NCBI RefSeq assembly: GCF_030684315.1
Contig: NC_081384.1
Span: 21,056,818-21,120,817, forward strand
DNA from: Stegostoma tigrinum
Lineage: Eukaryota
Reading direction: 5' to 3'
DNA: 64,000 bases
In this document: piece after piece, positions 1 to 64,000 of the stretch
How positions within the stretch are numbered: the stretch's first letter is position 1
Layout of the letters: the number at the start of each line of letters is the position of its first letter
Made by a program: the position numbers and the translations under genes
The notes under the pieces: model-generated
Told to the model about the DNA's origin: nothing
Databases searched by the model: none
What the model saw: the letters and a program-made list of their open reading frames with translations, nothing else

Positions 1-283
1 ACACATGGCAAATTTAGCTTGTCACTTTCACTGAACAACATCCATTTTAGAAACTTGGCACCAAAATCTCTGGGCATGTTCCATGGGTACTGACCAACAT
101 CCACATCTGATATGTGACAGTCTCTAAAAGACCTCCAGGGACATCTCTGATGCACCTACAGGATCCTTCTGCACTGCAATGCTGCACTGGCAACTATCAT
201 TGTAATCCTGTGGCAAGAACACTGAGTACTCGGGCACATGGGCCCAGCTTTAAGACTGAACCAGGCTGCATCTTCAGGCTAAG

Positions 284-511
284 TGAAAACCGAAAAAACT
301 GCAGATGCTGTAAATCAGGAACAAAAGCTGCGGAAAAGCTCAGCAGGTCTGGCAGCATCTGTGAAGGAAAAACAGAGTTAACGTTTTGGGTCTGGTGACT
401 ATTCCTCAGAATAGGCCCCCAGCCGTACTGGATTTGAAATATTAGCTCTGTTTCTCACACCACAGATGCTGCCTCTCCTGCTGAGTTTCTCCAATGTTCT
501 ACGTATTTGTT
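284..511. mobile_element. Penelope-like element terminal fragments (older subfamily), inverted pair
   Basis: GAACTGCAGATGCTG-like ...CTCAGCAGGTCTGGCAGCATCTG...AACGTTTTGGGTC..CCTCAG (284-410), followed by a diverged opposite-orientation copy (~430-511). Confidence 0.6.
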
Positions 512-1074
512 ACTTACCGCTGCTTTCAGCTTTGACCAGGGATTGAAAGCAGTTTACATGGCTCCATCTTCCACCATGTGGAGGGACAAGAGAAGCAGAA
601 CACCAGTACCAGCCAAAGCAAAGCGGCTGGAGATGCTGATACCTTTTCTACAGCCAGAAGTAGCTCCATAGGACATGTGGGATTTCCGAGGCTGTGATAA
701 CACTGTAGTGGGTTTGCAGGCTGAAATCAGGTCTCCAGAGAGGTTTGAGTACCAGTGCCTCAGAAGGCTCACACATTCATGTCAGGTCGTTTGCAGCTTC
801 ATGGAGCAAGATCTCTTTCCCAGTGGAATGGATTGCATTGTCGGTGGTGTACAAGGTGACTGGGGGATCACCATCTCCCTTTATCCCACATTACCCCTGC
901 ACACCAAGTAAACCCAATGGTGCACTCTCTTCCTTACACCTCATTTTCCTCATACTCATTGGCTAAGAAATGGCTGTTCTACTGAGTTCTTATTTATAGC
1001 TTTACTGTGTTTATCTGCGCTGGTATTTTGTGCTCCCTATTGCCACTGGCTACCAAATTTGCAGTATTTAGACG

Positions 1075-19270: not shown

Positions 19271-20532
19271 GCACACAAACAGTGTGGCCAACAACAACAT
19301 CCACTTTGGTCTGTCTTCCTATGTTATTATTCCTCATAGCAACTGAACTTATAGGTATACATATCCCACATTACCTTTTCTCATCTCACCTGAGCAAATA
19401 AGATGAAAACAAATCCATATTATTCTGTAGCATCATACCCATCTATCACATTGACACTCATAAATATTGCCCATCCACCTATTCAAAACATTCTGATTTT
19501 ATGCTCATTCAGAGCATGCAGAAATTCCTAATGCCAAAGACAAGAGTCTCTGACTATACTTCAAGTCTCAGAAAAAGTTCGACCTGAAATAATCTTGTTT
19601 CCGGGATTGTTTGAGGGAAGAAAGCACAAGCTGGAGTAAGGCATTAATTGAGTTACACTTTTGACAGTATGATGGTATGCTGCATGACTAAACTATGTTA
19701 GTTGATGATAAACAGATACAGTATGTTCCATCTCATGCCTGATTGTTAATAGGTAAACAGGTGGTAGTATTAACATTTTAGTCACAGAGAGCTTTTCTGG
19801 CTCTGAAAGAAGGAATACAAAAAATACTGGAGATGAAAGGAAGTTATTAAATGAGGCTGAATGGACTGATTTCCTCAATTTGAATGATTCCATCTCTCCC
19901 ATGTAACTTCACTAATCCAACAAGTGAATCTATCAAGCCTTCATGGATTCAGTTTGATACAGAAATCCATCCAGTTACTAGTAATATGGGCAAATGTTAG
20001 TTTTGTTTTTCAATGATCCTATTACAGAATCATGGAATTATTATGGTGAAGAATCAGAACATTTAGCCCATTGTGCCTGCAGCAACTCTATTATCTAGGG
20101 CCAATGTCCTGCTTTTTCCCTTCAGTACACCATTACTATCCAAAAATCCATCCAATGCCCTCTTAAATGCCTCCACCACATTTCCAAATTCTGCATTCCA
20201 CACCCTAAATACTCACTCTCTGAAAAAAATCATTATCTTCATGACCTCCTCTTTCACCATGACTTTGGCAACATTTCCTTCTTTGGTGATGTCAGATGGA
20301 AAGTATTCATTTAATACCAGAATCAAACCTTCAGCCTCCATGTGTCGATCTCTTTTAATTCCCTGACTGGGCTCACTCTTCCTACTTTTTTATTCTTTAT
20401 GTACCTGTGGAAGTCATTTGAATACCCATCATATTAATTGTTGGTCTCTTCTTACACTCTTTCCTTGCTTCTCTTATTTACCTTTCACACATAACATACC
20501 TCAAACTGACATAGAAGAATGTTCATTCTACA

Positions 20533-20702
20533 TAAAAACCAAAAGAACTGTGGGTGCTGTAAATCAAGAACAAAAATAGAAGTTTCAGGTCCGGTGACCA
20601 GTTCTGAGGAAGCGTCACCTGGCTCAAAATGTTAACACTGATTTTTTCTTCATAGATGCTGCCAGATCTGCTGAGCTTTTCCAGCAACTTCTGTTTTTGT
20701 TT
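20533..20702. mobile_element. Penelope-like inverted-terminus insertion (older subfamily)
   Basis: 36-bp tail + inverted ends AACAAAAATAGAAGTT / AACTTCTGTTTTTGTT; decayed hammerhead core CTGAGGA at 20604; flanking ATTCTACA direct repeat. Confidence 0.7.
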
Positions 20703-21884
20703 ATTCTACAGCTCCATTGATTTATGCTTAAAATGTTGATGGTCAATAACTAGTGAAGATAACTTGAAGAGATTCTACTGTAATACATGCAATGAGCATT
20801 CTTTGTGGTTTTCATGGTGGGGGAGAATTGAAACTGACTGTGAGAATCCTCTACCCCTGTTTCATATGTCAGAAGATAAATATGCCACTTTGATATCCAT
20901 TGTTCTTAAATGCAACAATCTCCTTCAGAATACTTTTTTTAAAAAAATTCTTTGAGAATGCTTACTTATCCCTAAGTATATTTATACAGATGCTCTGATC
21001 TGTCTTGTGACTTAGTCAAGAGTCCATCACCTGGATTTTGTTGTTAACAACAAAGTGATGACACCTATTGCTAACCTCAAAGAGTGCGTCTCACAAACAC
21101 TTTGTGATCTCTCTTACATGGAATTTACATTCCTTGTATTAATTTCATTCTTGTGTCAGCTCTAAAAGATTTCTGACCTCTAGTTACAGCGATGTCATCC
21201 AGCCAGCTAAGTAACCACCACACTGAAGAGTTCTCTGAGACAACAGCTAGAAGGTCAGGGGCATGAGTCAACCCTCACTTTTTAATTATCTTACAGAAAA
21301 TCATTAGTAGATTGGGACATACTGTAGGAACTGGATAGAAGCTAAAATATCATAAGATTATAGATGTGGATAAAATAAGAATCTATAATTTTCTCTTCGT
21401 CATTATGATGAAATTTGATATCTCACAAATGAAGTTTACAGGGTCAGAAATAATGGTGAGCAATAATCATAGGTTAGTGCATTGCTAAAACCCAGTTGCA
21501 TCTCATTCCACAATGTGTAATTTCACAGGGTGACAAAAATGAACGTTCTCAACAAATCACTTCCAAGATATTCATCTTAGAAAAGCTAACAGCTTTATGG
21601 AGGTGCAAACAATCACAATTCTTCATTTCATTTCCACAAACTCGGAGATCAGACATCGGTTTCATGAAGCAATGATGTCACATATTTTAGTTGTTGATAT
21701 GACCACAAAATCTGAATCATTGTTCATCTATGAGCCACATATGCATGTTAGCAATGCACTGTTTTGTTGAAAACATCATTGCCAAGCTAAGTAATGCTCC
21801 CCCTTGATTGCTGTACACTAAATGGTGATGTCAACTTGGAAAACCCCCATTGTTAATTTGTTTCTCTCTTTGCTACCTTGGGAT

Positions 21885-21975: not shown

Positions 21976-22054
21976 TGTTGCAGCATTTTGCTATTTATCA
22001 GTGTTCCAAAATGTCCATTAACTATTGCAGCTATGCAAGTATTCCTATATTGCA

Positions 22055-22277
22055 GAGATAATGGGAACTGCAGATGCTGGAGATTCCAAGATAATAAAAT
22101 GTGAGGCTGGATGAACACAGCAGGCCAAGCAGCATCTCAGGAGCACAAAAGCTGACGTTTCGGGCCTAGACCCTTCATCAGAGCCTCTGATGAAGGGTCT
22201 AGGCCCGAAACGTCAGCTTTTGTGCTCCTGAGATGCTGCTTGGCCTGCTGTGTTCATCCAGCCTCACATTTTATTAT
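22055..22277. mobile_element. Young Penelope-like inverted-terminus insertion (palindromic)
   Basis: 36-bp tail 22055-22090; perfect 93-bp inverted arms 22091-22183 / 22185-22277; TSD TATTCCTATATTGCA at 22040-22054 and 22275-22289. Confidence 0.85.
22187..22214 (+). ncRNA. Minimal type I hammerhead ribozyme core (PLE-type); mirror copy on - strand at 22154-22181
   Basis: CUGAUGA-A-GGG(UCUAGG)CCC-GAAA-CGUC: conserved boxes, stem II, palindromic ACGU in place of stem III, GUC cleavage triplet. Confidence 0.65.
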
Positions 22278-27242: not shown

Positions 27243-27331
27243 AGATAATAAAGTGTGGAGCTGGATGAACACAGCAGGCCAAGCAGCATCTCAGGGGCAC
27301 AAAAGCTGACGTTTCGGGCCTAGACCCTTCA
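27243..27331 (-). mobile_element. Young PLE terminal fragment
   Basis: Near-identical to the 22089-22178 arm; truncated at CCCTTCAT inside the hammerhead CUGAUGA box. Confidence 0.8.
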
Positions 27332-29558
27332 TGGCTTTTGTGCTGGTTGACAAGTCTGATGCAGTGCTGTGACTGTCACCAGGGGTAGGGAGAGAGGTAG
27401 GTCTGGCAGGAATGGGGATTTAAAACTACAGTTGGCATAAATCTGAACCATGGAAACAGACATGTGGAGACTGTTTAAGGAGCAGCTTTTGCGAATGATG
27501 TATAAATTGTTCCTCTGAGACAGGTAAGAAGGGGTAAGATTAAGGAGCCTTGGATGACGGGAACAGAGGTGCTTCTCGTCAAAAAGAAAAAGGCAGCTTA
27601 CGTAAGGTGGAGGAAGCAAGGGTCTAGCACAGCTTTAGAGGATTACAGGCTTGCTCGGAAGGAGCTCAAAAGTGGACTGAGGAGGGTCAGGAGGGGGCAC
27701 GATAAAGGCCTGGCAGGAAGGATCAGGGAGAGCCCAAAAGCATTTTACTCCTACGTGAGGTATAAGAGAATGATCAGGGAGAAGGTAGGGGCGATCAGGG
27801 ATAGCATAGCGAACTTGTGCATGGAGTCTGAGCAGATAGGGGAAGCCCTAAATGAGTTTTTTGGTTTAGTTTTCACTAAGGAAAGGGATCTTGTTGTGAA
27901 TGAGAACTTTGAGGAGCAGGAAAACAGGCTTGAACAGATCAAGATTGAGGAAGTTGATGTGCTGGAGATTTTGGCAAACATTAAGATTGATAAGTCCCCA
28001 GGGCCAGACCAGATTTATCCTAGGTTGCTCCGGGAAGCGAGAAAGGAGGTTGCTAAGCCGCTGGCAAAGATCTTTGCTTCCTCACTGTCCACAGGAGTCA
28101 TACCGGAAGATTGGAGGGAGGCAAATGTTGTTCCTCTTTTCAAGAAAGGGAATAGGGAAATCCCTGGAAATTACAGATTAGTCAGTCTTACGTCTGTGGT
28201 CAGCAAGGTTTTGGAAAGAATTCTGAGGGATAAGATTTATGGCTATTAGGAAAAGCATAGCGTGATTAAAGGGAGTCAGCATGGCTTTGTGAGGGGCAGG
28301 TCATGCCTTACAAATCTTATTGAGTTCTTTGAGGAAGTCACGAGACAGGTTGATGAGGGTCGTGCAATGGATGTGGTGTACATGGACTTCAGCAAGGCAT
28401 TTGATAAGGTTCCCCACGGCAGGCTCATTCATAAAGTCGGGAGGTATGGGATACAGGGTGACTTGGCTGTCTGGATTCAGAATTGGTTGGCTGACAGGAG
28501 GCAGAGAGTGGTTGTAGATGGTAAGTATTCTGCCTGGAGGTCAGTGCTGAGTGGTGTCCCGCAGGGCTCTATTCTTGAGCCTCTGCTCTTTGTAGTTTTT
28601 ATAAATGACTTGGATGAGGAGGTTGAGGGGTGAGTTAGTATATTTGCTGATGACACAAAGGTTGGAGGTGCCATTGATAGTATCGAGGGCTATTGCAGGC
28701 TTCAGCGAGACATTGACAGAATGCAGAGCTGGGCTGAGAAATGGCAAATGGAGTTCAACCTGAATAAATGCAAGGTGATGCATTTTGGAAGGTCGAACTT
28801 AAATGCTGAATATAGGATTAAAGGCAGGATTCTCAGCAGTGTGGAGGAACAACGGGATCTTGGTGTTCAAGTGCATATCTCCCTCAAAGTTGCCACCCAA
28901 GTGAATAAGGTTGTTAAGAAAGCATATGGTGTTTTGGCTTTCATTAACAGGGGGATCAAGTTTAAGAGCCGCGAGGTTATGCTGCAGCTCTACAAAACCC
29001 TGGTGAGACCACACTTGGAATATGGTGTTCAGTTCTGGTTGCCCTATTATAGGAAAGATGTGGAGGCTTTGGAGAGGGTGCAAAGGAGGTTTACCAGGAT
29101 GCTGCCTGGAGTGGAGGGCTTGTCTTACGAGGAGAGGTTGACTGAGCTCGGACTTTTCTCTCTGGAGAGAAGGAGGAAGAGAGGTGACCTGATCAAGATG
29201 TACAAGGTAATGAGAGGCATGGATAGAGTCGATAGCCAGAGACTTTTCCCCAGGGCAGGATTGACTGCCATGAGGGGTCATAGTTTTAAGGTGTTAGGAG
29301 GAAGGTATAGAGGAGGCATCAGAGGGAGGTTCTTCACCCAGACAGTTGTGAGCGCATGGAATACTTTGCAAGTGGTAGTCATGGAAGCAGAGTCATTAGT
29401 GACATTTAAGCGACTGCTGGGCATGCACATGGACAGCAGTGAATTGAGGGGAGTGTAGGTTAGGTTATTTTATTTTTGGATTAGGATTATTCCACAGCAC
29501 AACATCGTGGGCCGAAGGGCCTGTACTGTGCTGTACTTTCCTATGTTCTATGTTCTAT
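27332..29558 (+). mobile_element. CR1-clade LINE (HER1-like), 5'-truncated, young; RT pseudogene
   Basis: ORFs 27554-28249, 28262-28633 and 28721-29458 share one frame broken by TAG and TGA; motifs [38 protein letters not shown]; 3'UTR GGGCCGAAGGGCCTGT and (CTATGTT)n tail. Confidence 0.95.
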
Positions 29559-41159: not shown

Positions 41160-42600
41160 CACAGAATCAAAGAGTTATTTCGGAGCAGAAGGAGGCCATT
41201 CAGCCATCGTGTCTGCATCAATACTCTGTGCATTTTTTTTCTTTGTGCCATTCTCTTGCTTCTTATGTGTAGCCCGGAACATTGGATGATTATTTAAATG
41301 GAAAATGTTCTCTTGAATGCCTCAATTCAATCTGCCTCCACCACACTTCCGGTCGTGCATTCCATATGCTAACCACTCACTGTGTGAAAAGGTTTTTCCC
41401 ACTTCACATTTGTTTTTCTTGCAAAACACTTTAAAACTGTATCCTCTGGTTTTTGATCCATTTAACAGTGGGAAGCAGTTTCTCCTTACCCATTCTCTCT
41501 ATATCACTCACAATTTTGAAAGCTTCTATCAACTCTCCACTTAGTCTTCTCTCCAAGGAAAACAGTCCCCACTTCTCCAAGCTTTTCGCTTGGCATATCC
41601 ATAGAATTATATTCATAAACCTCTTCTGCACTGTCTCCAATGCATTCATACCCTTCCTCTGCTGTGGAACACAGAAATGCACATAATACTCCAGCTGACC
41701 TCTCACCAGAGTCTCTTGTCAGTTCATCATAACCCTACTGACCAACTAGACCCCCTGCCCTTGGTTCTCTATGCCCCTATTCACAAAACCCACAACAGTA
41801 TATGCTTAATCTGTACCTACCCTGCCACCTTCAATAACTGATGTACATATAAACCCAGATAATAAAATGTGAGGCTGGATGAACACAGCAGGCCAAGCAG
41901 CATCTCAGGAGCACAAAAGCTCATATACAAGAGCACATATAAACCCAGATCTTTATGCTCCTGTATAACATTTAGAACAGTACCCTTTTTTCTGCATTTT
42001 TTTTACCAGAGTGTATTACTTCACACTTCTCCACATTGAGCTTATCCTGATATCAATCCACCCACTCCTCCAATATTAGTGTTGTTTTGGAATTCTACAA
42101 TGTCCTCCTCACAGTTTACGATTCTACCAAATTTTGTGTCGTCTGCAAATGTTGAAATTACCCCTGTACACAAGATCTAAATCCTTTGTATATCAGAAAA
42201 AGAGAAACTCCCAGCACTGACCCCTGGGGAACTCCACTACAAAACTTCTTCCAGCCTGAAAAGTACCCACAATTAGTCTTTCTCCCCTATCTCCCAGACA
42301 ATGTTGCGTCCATTTTGCTACTGTTCCTTTTATTCCATAACCTATAAATGTAGTCACAAGGCTTTCGTGCGGCATGGTATCCAATGCCCTTTAAAAGTCC
42401 ACGTGCACCACATTAATACTGCGCCTATTACCTCTTCAAAAATCTTCAGCTAGTTCGAATCAATTTTCCTTGAACGAGCGCATGATGACTCTTCCCAAAT
42501 AACTCAGTTTTGTTCCACGTGTCTATTAATTTGATGCCGAATAATTGCTACTAGAAGTCTTTCTCCCCACCACCGAAGTTAACCTGACTGGTCTAAATCA
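41160..42600 (-). mobile_element. CR1 LINE 3' fragment (decayed), interrupted by a PLE fragment
   Basis: Minus ORF LEYYVHFCVPQQRKGMNALETVQKRF..LEKWGLFSLERRLSGELIEAFKI; FADDTK remnant near 42130-42148. Confidence 0.85.
41861..41934 (-). mobile_element. Young PLE micro-insertion with 16-bp TSD
   Basis: 41861-41921 is identical to 22093-22153; ACATATAAACCCAGAT duplicated at 41845-41860 and 41935-41950. Confidence 0.85.
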
Positions 42601-45836: not shown

Positions 45837-63786
<17,950 letters not shown>

Positions 63787-64000
63787 GTAAGTCCATATCT
63801 TGAATTATTTCAAACTAATAATAACTGAAATCCTCTTCAAGGCTGTTGTGTCAGGTTCTGTTGACATTTGGTACTTTGTTCATTTTGGAATCCAGAGATC
63901 ATTAGCCATGGTGATATATTGTCCGAAATTTTGCAGCAATAATGACAGCAAAGTAATGAGTGTTCGCGGTCATTAGTCCATTGAAAAAAAACTGACTGTA

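What the first reader, a model, noticed from the sequence alone, without database searches (positions are those of the whole stretch)
41845..41950. PLE micro-insert begins exactly at the predicted ribozyme cleavage site
Seen: a 61-bp piece (41861-41921) identical to the young repeat sits in an old CR1 with a 16-bp TSD. On the element-sense (minus) strand it starts AGCTTTTGTGCTCC, the first nucleotides after GAAACGTC. The next base departs from the element and is followed by 13 bp of filler (CATATACAAGAGC) resembling bits of target and element. Inference: reverse transcription ran off the 5' end of a self-cleaved RNA, which would be a genomic fossil of in vivo hammerhead activity. One instance could be chance.
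Basis: partly seen in the sequence, partly recalled or inferred. Interest (0 to 1): 0.72.

Follow-up and report, generated by a model that had tools for sequence, protein, structure and literature searches.

The report
Penelope stub starting at hammerhead cut
This 61-base scrap of a very common jumping gene begins exactly at the predicted cut of the element's small self-cutting RNA, and the genome holds a modest excess of such starts, which likely means that a few percent of copies were made from self-cut RNA, although this one copy could also be a chance join.

Summary
Observation confirmed: 61 bp of a Penelope-like (Neptune-type) element, starting at the first base after GAAACGTC (+1), 13-nt filler, 16-bp TSD, in a decayed LINE. 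Among 142,003 exact cores, starts at +1 number 2,402 against 127-383 at five neighbouring positions. About 60% are head-to-head joints on the AGCT palindrome (553 insertions, against 21-95 for four other 4-bp palindromes of equal or greater stability), and arms starting at +1 rarely have a partner arm that crosses the cut (2 of 20, against 56 of 67 elsewhere). A second family shows a weaker +1 peak. But microhomology inflates the peak, a non-palindromic subfamily shows under twofold excess, helix I has only 2 bp, only 3% of arms start at +1, and 44% start at the ribozyme's 5' edge (-34 to -20). This copy's filler itself supplies an AGC microhomology. Cleavage as the cause of the excess: about 0.6; this copy being such a fossil: about 0.4. 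No RNA data. Earlier notes of this scan report the same pattern at other places in this genome and in two other genomes.

The parts
41861..41921 (-). Element bases +1 to +61 (first base after the predicted hammerhead cut to the short 3' end of the pseudo-LTR)
   Evidence: Identical to reverse complement of 22215-22275; 3' end falls in the +62..+69 cluster of the family
41922..41934 (-). 13-nt filler, element-sense GCTCTTGTATATG: patches matching element +7..+13 (with the TSD's last TGT), element near +64 (TCTTG) and the TSD (TATATG); GCTC...GAGC can fold back and supplies AGC microhomology
   Evidence: fold-back read from the sequence
41845..41860 (.). Target-site duplication, copy at the element's 3' end
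41935..41950 (.). Target-site duplication, copy at the element's 5' end
   Evidence: family TSDs peak at 13-16 bp
41984..42597 (-). Decayed host LINE reverse transcriptase; the insertion lies just after it in the same orientation
   Evidence: tblastn 32% identity to RVT_1 ORF of L050
22185..22277 (+). Reference copy, short arm (-30 to about +63) of a head-to-head insertion; holds the whole minimal hammerhead (CTGATGA at 22187, cut between 22214 and 22215)
22053..22183 (-). Tail-bearing arm (-30 to about +101) of the same head-to-head insertion
27243..27332 (-). Further copy truncated inside CTGATGA (about -25)
54861..55249 (-). Two hammerhead-bearing copies in tandem, 306 bases apart

Best explanation
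The insert is a 5'-truncated 3' end of a Penelope-like retroelement with a 16-bp target duplication, and it likely belongs to a minority class (about 2-4% of copies) whose RNA template had probably been cut by the element's minimal hammerhead, so that reverse transcription would have run off at +1. Steps: (shown) the family has two 3' ends, +62..+69 and +98..+103, TSDs of 13-16 bp, and head-to-head insertions that nearly always pair one short arm with one tail arm; (inferred) the endonuclease nicks both strands about 14-16 bases apart and each nick primes at one of the two start sites, probably on one RNA or a paired RNA dimer; (shown) most arms stop at -34..-20 or further upstream, a smaller sharp set at +1; (inferred) when the template ends at +1 both cDNAs end in AGCT and anneal into a perfect palindrome, and when only one strand is copied, as here, the cDNA end is joined to the target by repair synthesis that writes a templated filler; (untested) the ribozyme cuts in vivo, as a dimer through ACGU or with protein help.
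For: Starts with three upstream bases unlike the element: -5 239, -2 127, -1 359, +1 2,402, +2 315, +3 383, of 142,003 cores. Symmetric joints on 4-bp palindromes: AGCT at +1..+4 553; ACGT at -5..-2 34; GGCC at -13..-10 95; CTAG 65; GGCC at +28..+31 21, although AGCT is the weakest duplex (-3.8 against -4.0 to -6.8 kcal/mol). Partner arm crosses the cut in 2 of 20 non-symmetric +1 joints but in 56 of 67 at -5, -2, +2, +3 (Fisher 2e-9; 2 of 11 after dropping rows with 3-4 nt microhomology, 4e-5). Target-joined starts: about 240 (95% 118-423) at +1 against 37-84. T-preceded starts, which exclude the AAA and AGG classes: 249 at +1 against 89 at the AG start +17 and about 120 and 100 at +2 and +3 (by eye). 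An unrelated family with TGAAAAC after the cut: 9 clear starts at +1 against 18 over -7..-1, two insertions with both arms ending at +1 without microhomology (by eye). One-tail-one-short pairing 125 of 134.
Against: Only 11 of 365 arms start at +1, 159 at -34..-20; +13 also has 11 there (not inspected). Microhomology alone makes large peaks elsewhere: 381 joints on imperfect GAGCAC at +8..+13, 284 on the stem II palindrome, 673 starts at the AG of -14 against about 910 non-AAA starts at +1. The symmetric AGCT joint would arise equally from ends at +1, +2 or +3. In the AGCC subfamily +1 has 185, of which 15 of 30 inspected are real breaks, against 56 at +2: under twofold. In the second family +2 (7) and +3 (12) are as high as +1, and 9 against the downstream mean has P=0.04 only. 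The filter at +1 drops two of the three AG-microhomology joints with an upstream partner, which inflates the partner asymmetry; some filler rows may be eroded symmetric joints. Helix I has 2 bp and is not predicted to form (P 0.00); Rfam finds nothing. In the anole element cleavage was not needed for insertion in vitro and no RNA reads began or ended at the cut (PMC11167929).
Confidence: 0.6

Rival explanations
1. Microhomology only: templates are uncut, and cDNA ends are trimmed and joined wherever a short match exists; AGCT is palindromic and AGC recurs five times in the antisense arm, so +1 collects joints. For this copy, fold-back synthesis of the filler produced GAGC, which annealed at +1.
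For: 381, 284 and 673 joints at other microhomology sites; excess under twofold where the palindrome is absent; filler anatomy.
Against: Does not explain a 16-fold difference between AGCT and the equally stable ACGT five bases away, the twofold excess of T-preceded and about threefold excess of target-joined starts, or blunt both-arms-at-+1 joints in the second family.
Confidence: 0.2
2. Reverse transcriptase stalls at the 3' edge of a folded or protein-bound ribozyme region on an uncut RNA; both cDNAs then end at about +1..+3 and give the same palindrome.
For: A 39-nt fragment folds into a -11.4 kcal/mol rod pairing -28..-23 with -4..+2; symmetric joints cannot tell +1 from +2 or +3; a stall would also bound both arms.
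Against: The rod is not predicted in 100-nt context (P 0.02); non-symmetric starts peak at +1, not +3; in the second family helix I covers +1..+3, so a stall should end at +4, yet +4 has 4 and +1 has 9 (by eye).
Confidence: 0.15
3. This particular copy is an ordinary random truncation that fell on +1, whatever the population shows.
For: Background target-joined starts are 37-84 per position against about 240 at +1, so a quarter to a third of such copies are background even if cleavage occurs.
Against: +1 is the most used single position between -19 and +12.
Confidence: 0.05

Closest known systems
EN+ Penelope-like elements (Neptune/Nematis type) with pseudo-LTR, inverted 5' copy and optional 30-40-bp tail (PMC8557442 and PMC3846280, passages read)
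   Same: RT then CX4CxxC linker then GIY-YIG; heavy 5' truncation; head-to-head copies with palindromic joints; tail on one end; TSD
   Different: Here the joints were counted: tail-plus-short pairing 125 of 134, 5' ends peak at -32..-29 and at +1. PMC3846280 reads such palindromes as self-priming; the one-tail-one-short rule with a TSD fits two primed strands better (inference).
Minimal hammerheads of metazoan PLEs (Cervera and De la Pena 2014, PMC4209133, parts 1-2 of 4 read)
   Same: CUGAUGA, one unpaired base before G10.1-C11.1, GAAA, palindromic 15.2-16.2, GUC; weak, dimer-type design; mostly dispersed single copies
   Different: Helix I of 2 bp (as in the D. virilis variant) rather than 4-5 bp; that paper states there was no in vivo evidence, while this genome gives an indirect footprint
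Poseidon of Anolis (Frangieh et al. 2024, PMC11167929, parts 1-2 of 4 read; supplements not seen)
   Same: Two internal RT start sites bounding the tail; both target strands cut and extended; hammerhead just upstream
   Different: There uncut RNA was the dominant substrate and no reads matched the cut; here most copies also come from uncut RNA but a small class starts at the cut
R2 elements with HDV-like ribozyme (Eickbush et al. 2013, PMC3774820, abstract read)
   Same: Genomic 5' junctions can record a ribozyme cut; junctions at the cut are variable and use chance microhomology
   Different: In R2 the cut defines the element's 5' end; here it accounts for a few percent of copies and removes the ribozyme from the copy

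Membership tests
EN+ Penelope-like element | ORF with RT followed by C-terminal GIY-YIG endonuclease, upstream of the repeat | tested here: met
   RVT_1 E 1.9e-5 in L074 and GIY-YIG E 5.4e-4 in L065; both below Pfam's curated cut-offs and on fragments of two copies whose ORFs overlap
EN+ Penelope-like element | Pseudo-LTR with inverted copies and a 30-40-bp tail at one end | tested here: met
   3' ends at +62..+69 and +98..+103; 125 of 134 head-to-head pairs with one tail
Neptune/Nematis clades | CX2-5CxxC motif between RT and endonuclease | tested here: met
   CNRRKCYTC before the GIY-YIG motif; feature from PMC8557442
Neptune clade | RT phylogeny | not tested
   No reference PLE proteins were on hand
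Minimal type I hammerhead of PLEs | Conserved core CUGAnGA, GAAA, UH; extra base before G10.1-C11.1; palindromic 15.2-16.2 | tested here: met
   Sequence at 22187-22214 against the features in PMC4209133; Rfam gives no hit at gathering score
Minimal type I hammerhead of PLEs | Helix I of 4-5 bp | tested here: not met
   Only -30/-29 pair with +2/+1; no 5-nt complement of +1..+5 in the 1.4 kb of one copy; 2 bp is described for the D. virilis variant
Minimal type I hammerhead of PLEs | Self-cleavage after GUC | not testable with these tools
   Needs an RNA assay; only the genomic footprint was measured
Retroelements whose 5' end is set by a ribozyme cut (R2 type) | Most complete copies begin at the cut | tested here: not met
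   11 of 365 arms at +1, 159 at -34..-20, 109 beyond -40
Non-LTR retrozyme | Two or more tandem units each with a whole hammerhead | tested here: not met
   The insert is single and lacks the core; definition from 10.64898/2026.07.22.740005

The most novel reading that the evidence does not exclude
Minimal Penelope hammerheads do cut in the germline, and the genome records it: a staggered double nick primes two cDNAs on one RNA (or on an ACGU-paired, doubly cut RNA dimer), so head-to-head joints read out template ends, one at the ribozyme's 5' edge and one at its cut. Self-cleavage would then act as a brake that turns a few percent of transposition events into ribozyme-less dead stubs.
Probability: 0.45. 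Interest if true: 0.7.

Novelty: new member of a known kind. Interest (0 to 1): 0.5.

Why it matters
Whether the minimal hammerheads of animal Penelope-like elements cut in vivo is open: they are barely active in vitro (PMC4209133) and no RNA ends were found at the cut in the one reconstituted element (PMC11167929). An excess of genomic junctions at the cut, in a family with over 140,000 copies, is indirect in vivo evidence and names exact ends to look for in RNA. The junction counts also constrain how the characteristic inverted copies and the one-sided tail arise. I found no paper that tabulates PLE 5' junctions against the hammerhead cut in seven searches of the held library; subscription journals and supplements were not searched.

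Tried and rejected
A DNA search of the genome with the 61-mer returned nothing because common words are skipped; counts were made with patterns instead. Rfam found no family in the window. Sequencing runs: no RNA holder listed, so RNA ends were not examined and no reads were laid. The rod-hairpin stall model was raised by a 39-nt fold and weakened in longer context. An intramolecular snap-back origin of the AGCT palindrome was considered and judged less likely, since it needs a 2-nt loop while the larger-loop product is rare (GCA rows, 10 of 31 inspected at -1). A splice-defined 5' end was considered; the -34..-20 cluster is broad and has no AG at -30. An uninterrupted relative of the host site was sought among fetched loci: one weak 71-nt hit, not used. 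A larger random sample could not be fetched, so the unselected histogram rests on 365 arms. Lunse et al. 2016 on dimeric PLE hammerheads was not held; I know it only from a review's passage and reference list.

Full report
Numbering: +1 is the first base after GAAACGTC on the element's sense strand, -1 the C before it.

1. Observation. The 16-bp repeat at 41845-41860 and 41935-41950 encloses 61 bp (41861-41921, minus strand) and 13 bp of filler. The 61 bp are identical to +1..+61 of the copy at 22215-22275. The host is a decayed LINE reverse transcriptase.

2. The element. The window lies in a 3.2-Gb genome with 142,003 exact copies of +1..+29. Long copies lead upstream into an ORF with RT, a CX4CxxC linker and a GIY-YIG domain (Pfam scores below curated cut-offs), the anatomy given for Neptune/Nematis-type Penelope-like elements (PMC8557442, passages). 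Directly before +1 stands a minimal hammerhead matching the features in PMC4209133 (parts 1-2 of 4), but with a 2-bp helix I that folding does not predict; Rfam has no hit. 3' ends cluster at +62..+69 and +98..+103, and 125 of 134 classifiable head-to-head pairs (142 found, 8 with an atypical end left out) have one of each. This matches the two RT start sites and two-strand priming shown for anole Poseidon (PMC11167929, parts 1-2 of 4). I infer that both nicks of a 13-16-base stagger prime copying in one coordinated event.

3. Where copies begin. In 365 arms not chosen on a breakpoint (164 from flanks, random stretches and the window; 201 from loci partly chosen on an intact +1..+29 core), 109 reach beyond -40, 159 begin at -34..-20, 38 at -19..-1 and 11 at +1 (5 and 6 in the two sets; the focal copy and both arms of symmetric insertions are included); +13 also has 11, probably one tandem array seen, not checked. 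So the dominant end leaves the ribozyme whole; +1 is a minor, sharp peak of about 3%.

4. Whole-genome counts. With three upstream bases all unlike the element: -5 239, -2 127, -1 359, +1 2,402, +2 315, +3 383. Of the first 100 listed at +1, 62 have AAA upstream (by eye); I fetched all 38 others and part of the AAA rows, 76 arms in all, of which 37 were symmetric joints. Symmetric joints number 553 on AGCT against 34 on ACGT, 95 and 21 on the two GGCC and 65 on CTAG (CpG decay allowed), though AGCT is the weakest duplex. If both cDNAs share a template that ends at +1, neither arm can cross the cut: the partner arm crosses in 2 of 20 non-symmetric +1 joints (2 of 11 without 3-4-nt microhomology) and in 3 of 18 at -1, but in 56 of 67 at -5, -2, +2 and +3 (from 26-31 loci per offset). 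Target-joined starts scale to about 240 at +1 (10 of 100; 8 on manual reading) against 37-84. T-preceded starts are 249 at +1, 89 at +17 (a wider set of subfamilies) and about 120 and 100 at +2 and +3 (38 and 27 of the first 100, by eye).

5. Results against. Microhomology makes sizeable peaks with no ribozyme: 381 joints on GAGCAC, 284 on stem II, 673 starts at -14. The symmetric joint cannot distinguish ends at +1, +2 or +3. In the AGCC subfamily (12,377 cores) +1 has 185, of which 15 of 30 inspected are real breaks, against 56 at +2 (not inspected). The filter at +1 removes two of three AG-microhomology joints to upstream partners. In an unrelated family (TGAAAAC after the cut) I read 100 of 158 matches by eye and dropped 23 indels or internal deletions: +1 had 9 clear and 3 doubtful starts, -7..-1 18 in all, +2 7, +3 12 (start of an A run), +4..+9 17; two insertions had both arms ending at +1 without microhomology (Poisson 0.001 against upstream, 0.04 against downstream).

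6. This copy. The filler is a mosaic of element and target patches, typical of repair synthesis by repeated short-match priming (recalled for polymerase theta, not tested). Its first four bases can fold back to template GAGC, so the final join may have used AGC microhomology whether or not the cDNA ended there. With a target-joined excess of roughly threefold and 0.6 for cleavage as its cause, the odds that this copy is a cleavage fossil are about 0.4.

7. Mechanism. Most likely: most templates are uncut and end or block at the ribozyme's 5' edge; a few percent are cut after GUC, as dimers or with protein help (untested), and yield stubs that start at +1, mostly as AGCT palindromes because that end anneals to itself. 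Rivals are microhomology alone (0.2) and RT stalling at the 3' edge of a fold (0.15).

8. Known and new. Element, ribozyme, inverted copies and tail are known kinds. R2 elements already show that junctions can record a ribozyme cut (PMC3774820, abstract). For Penelope-like elements the papers I read report weak in vitro activity and no in vivo evidence; seven searches showed no junction count at the cut. Supplements were not seen, and Fig. S2 of PMC11167929 bears on this. Other papers seen: 10.64898/2026.07.22.740005 (parts 1-2 of 5), PMC3846280 and PMC6765202 (passages). Earlier notes of this scan, looked up after my counts, report the same edge cluster, cut-site footprint and two-ended insertion at other places in this genome and in two other genomes; they are unchecked notes on largely the same data, not independent support.

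Verdict: real feature, known kind of element, indirect and moderate evidence on an open question. Interest 0.5.

Noticed in passing
genome-wide; window 22053-22277: The main 5' end of the family lies at the ribozyme's 5' edge: 159 of 365 arms at -34..-20 and 4,687 head-to-head insertions with both arms ending within 10 bases before CTGATGA. Cause open: RNA start, nuclease stop or RT block before the C tract.
   Followed up: partly
142 head-to-head pairs in fetched loci: 125 of 134 classifiable pairs have exactly one tail arm and one short arm (expected 67 if independent), with TSD-like repeats of 13-16 bp in 88 of 142.
   Followed up: yes
window 250-520 and 20480-20720; L412, L131 and others: A second hammerhead family (AACTCTG after the cut, 4-bp helix I) also mostly begins a few bases before CTGA: 18 of 25 motif-bearing copies by eye, of 75 copies found.
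   Followed up: partly
L412, L131 (second family); L177 about -53 (main family): 3' splice-site-like sequence shortly upstream of the hammerhead (branch-like CTGAC, pyrimidines, CAG 12 bases before CTGA in the second family), recalling the intron that ends at helix I in D. virilis Penelope.
   Followed up: no
L321, L322, L325, L329, L330, L341, L345, L347: An older subfamily carries an extra A at the cut (GAAACGTCA then AGCC) together with a different stem II; a distinct ribozyme variant.
   Followed up: no
L138-L146 (G000 C2, 58.04 Mb); window 54861-55249: Tandem arrays of element pieces: a 208-bp unit restarting at -5 (nine units listed) and a 306-bp two-unit repeat with whole hammerheads, retrozyme-like.
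   Followed up: no
L136 minus strand: An inverted arm supplies an in-frame ATG to the element's ORF, giving a 533-codon chimeric frame.
   Followed up: no
window 49270-63800: Exons of a fibrillar-type collagen gene (Gly-X-Y repeats, + strand); the tandem Penelope copies at 54861-55249 lie in one of its introns.
   Followed up: no
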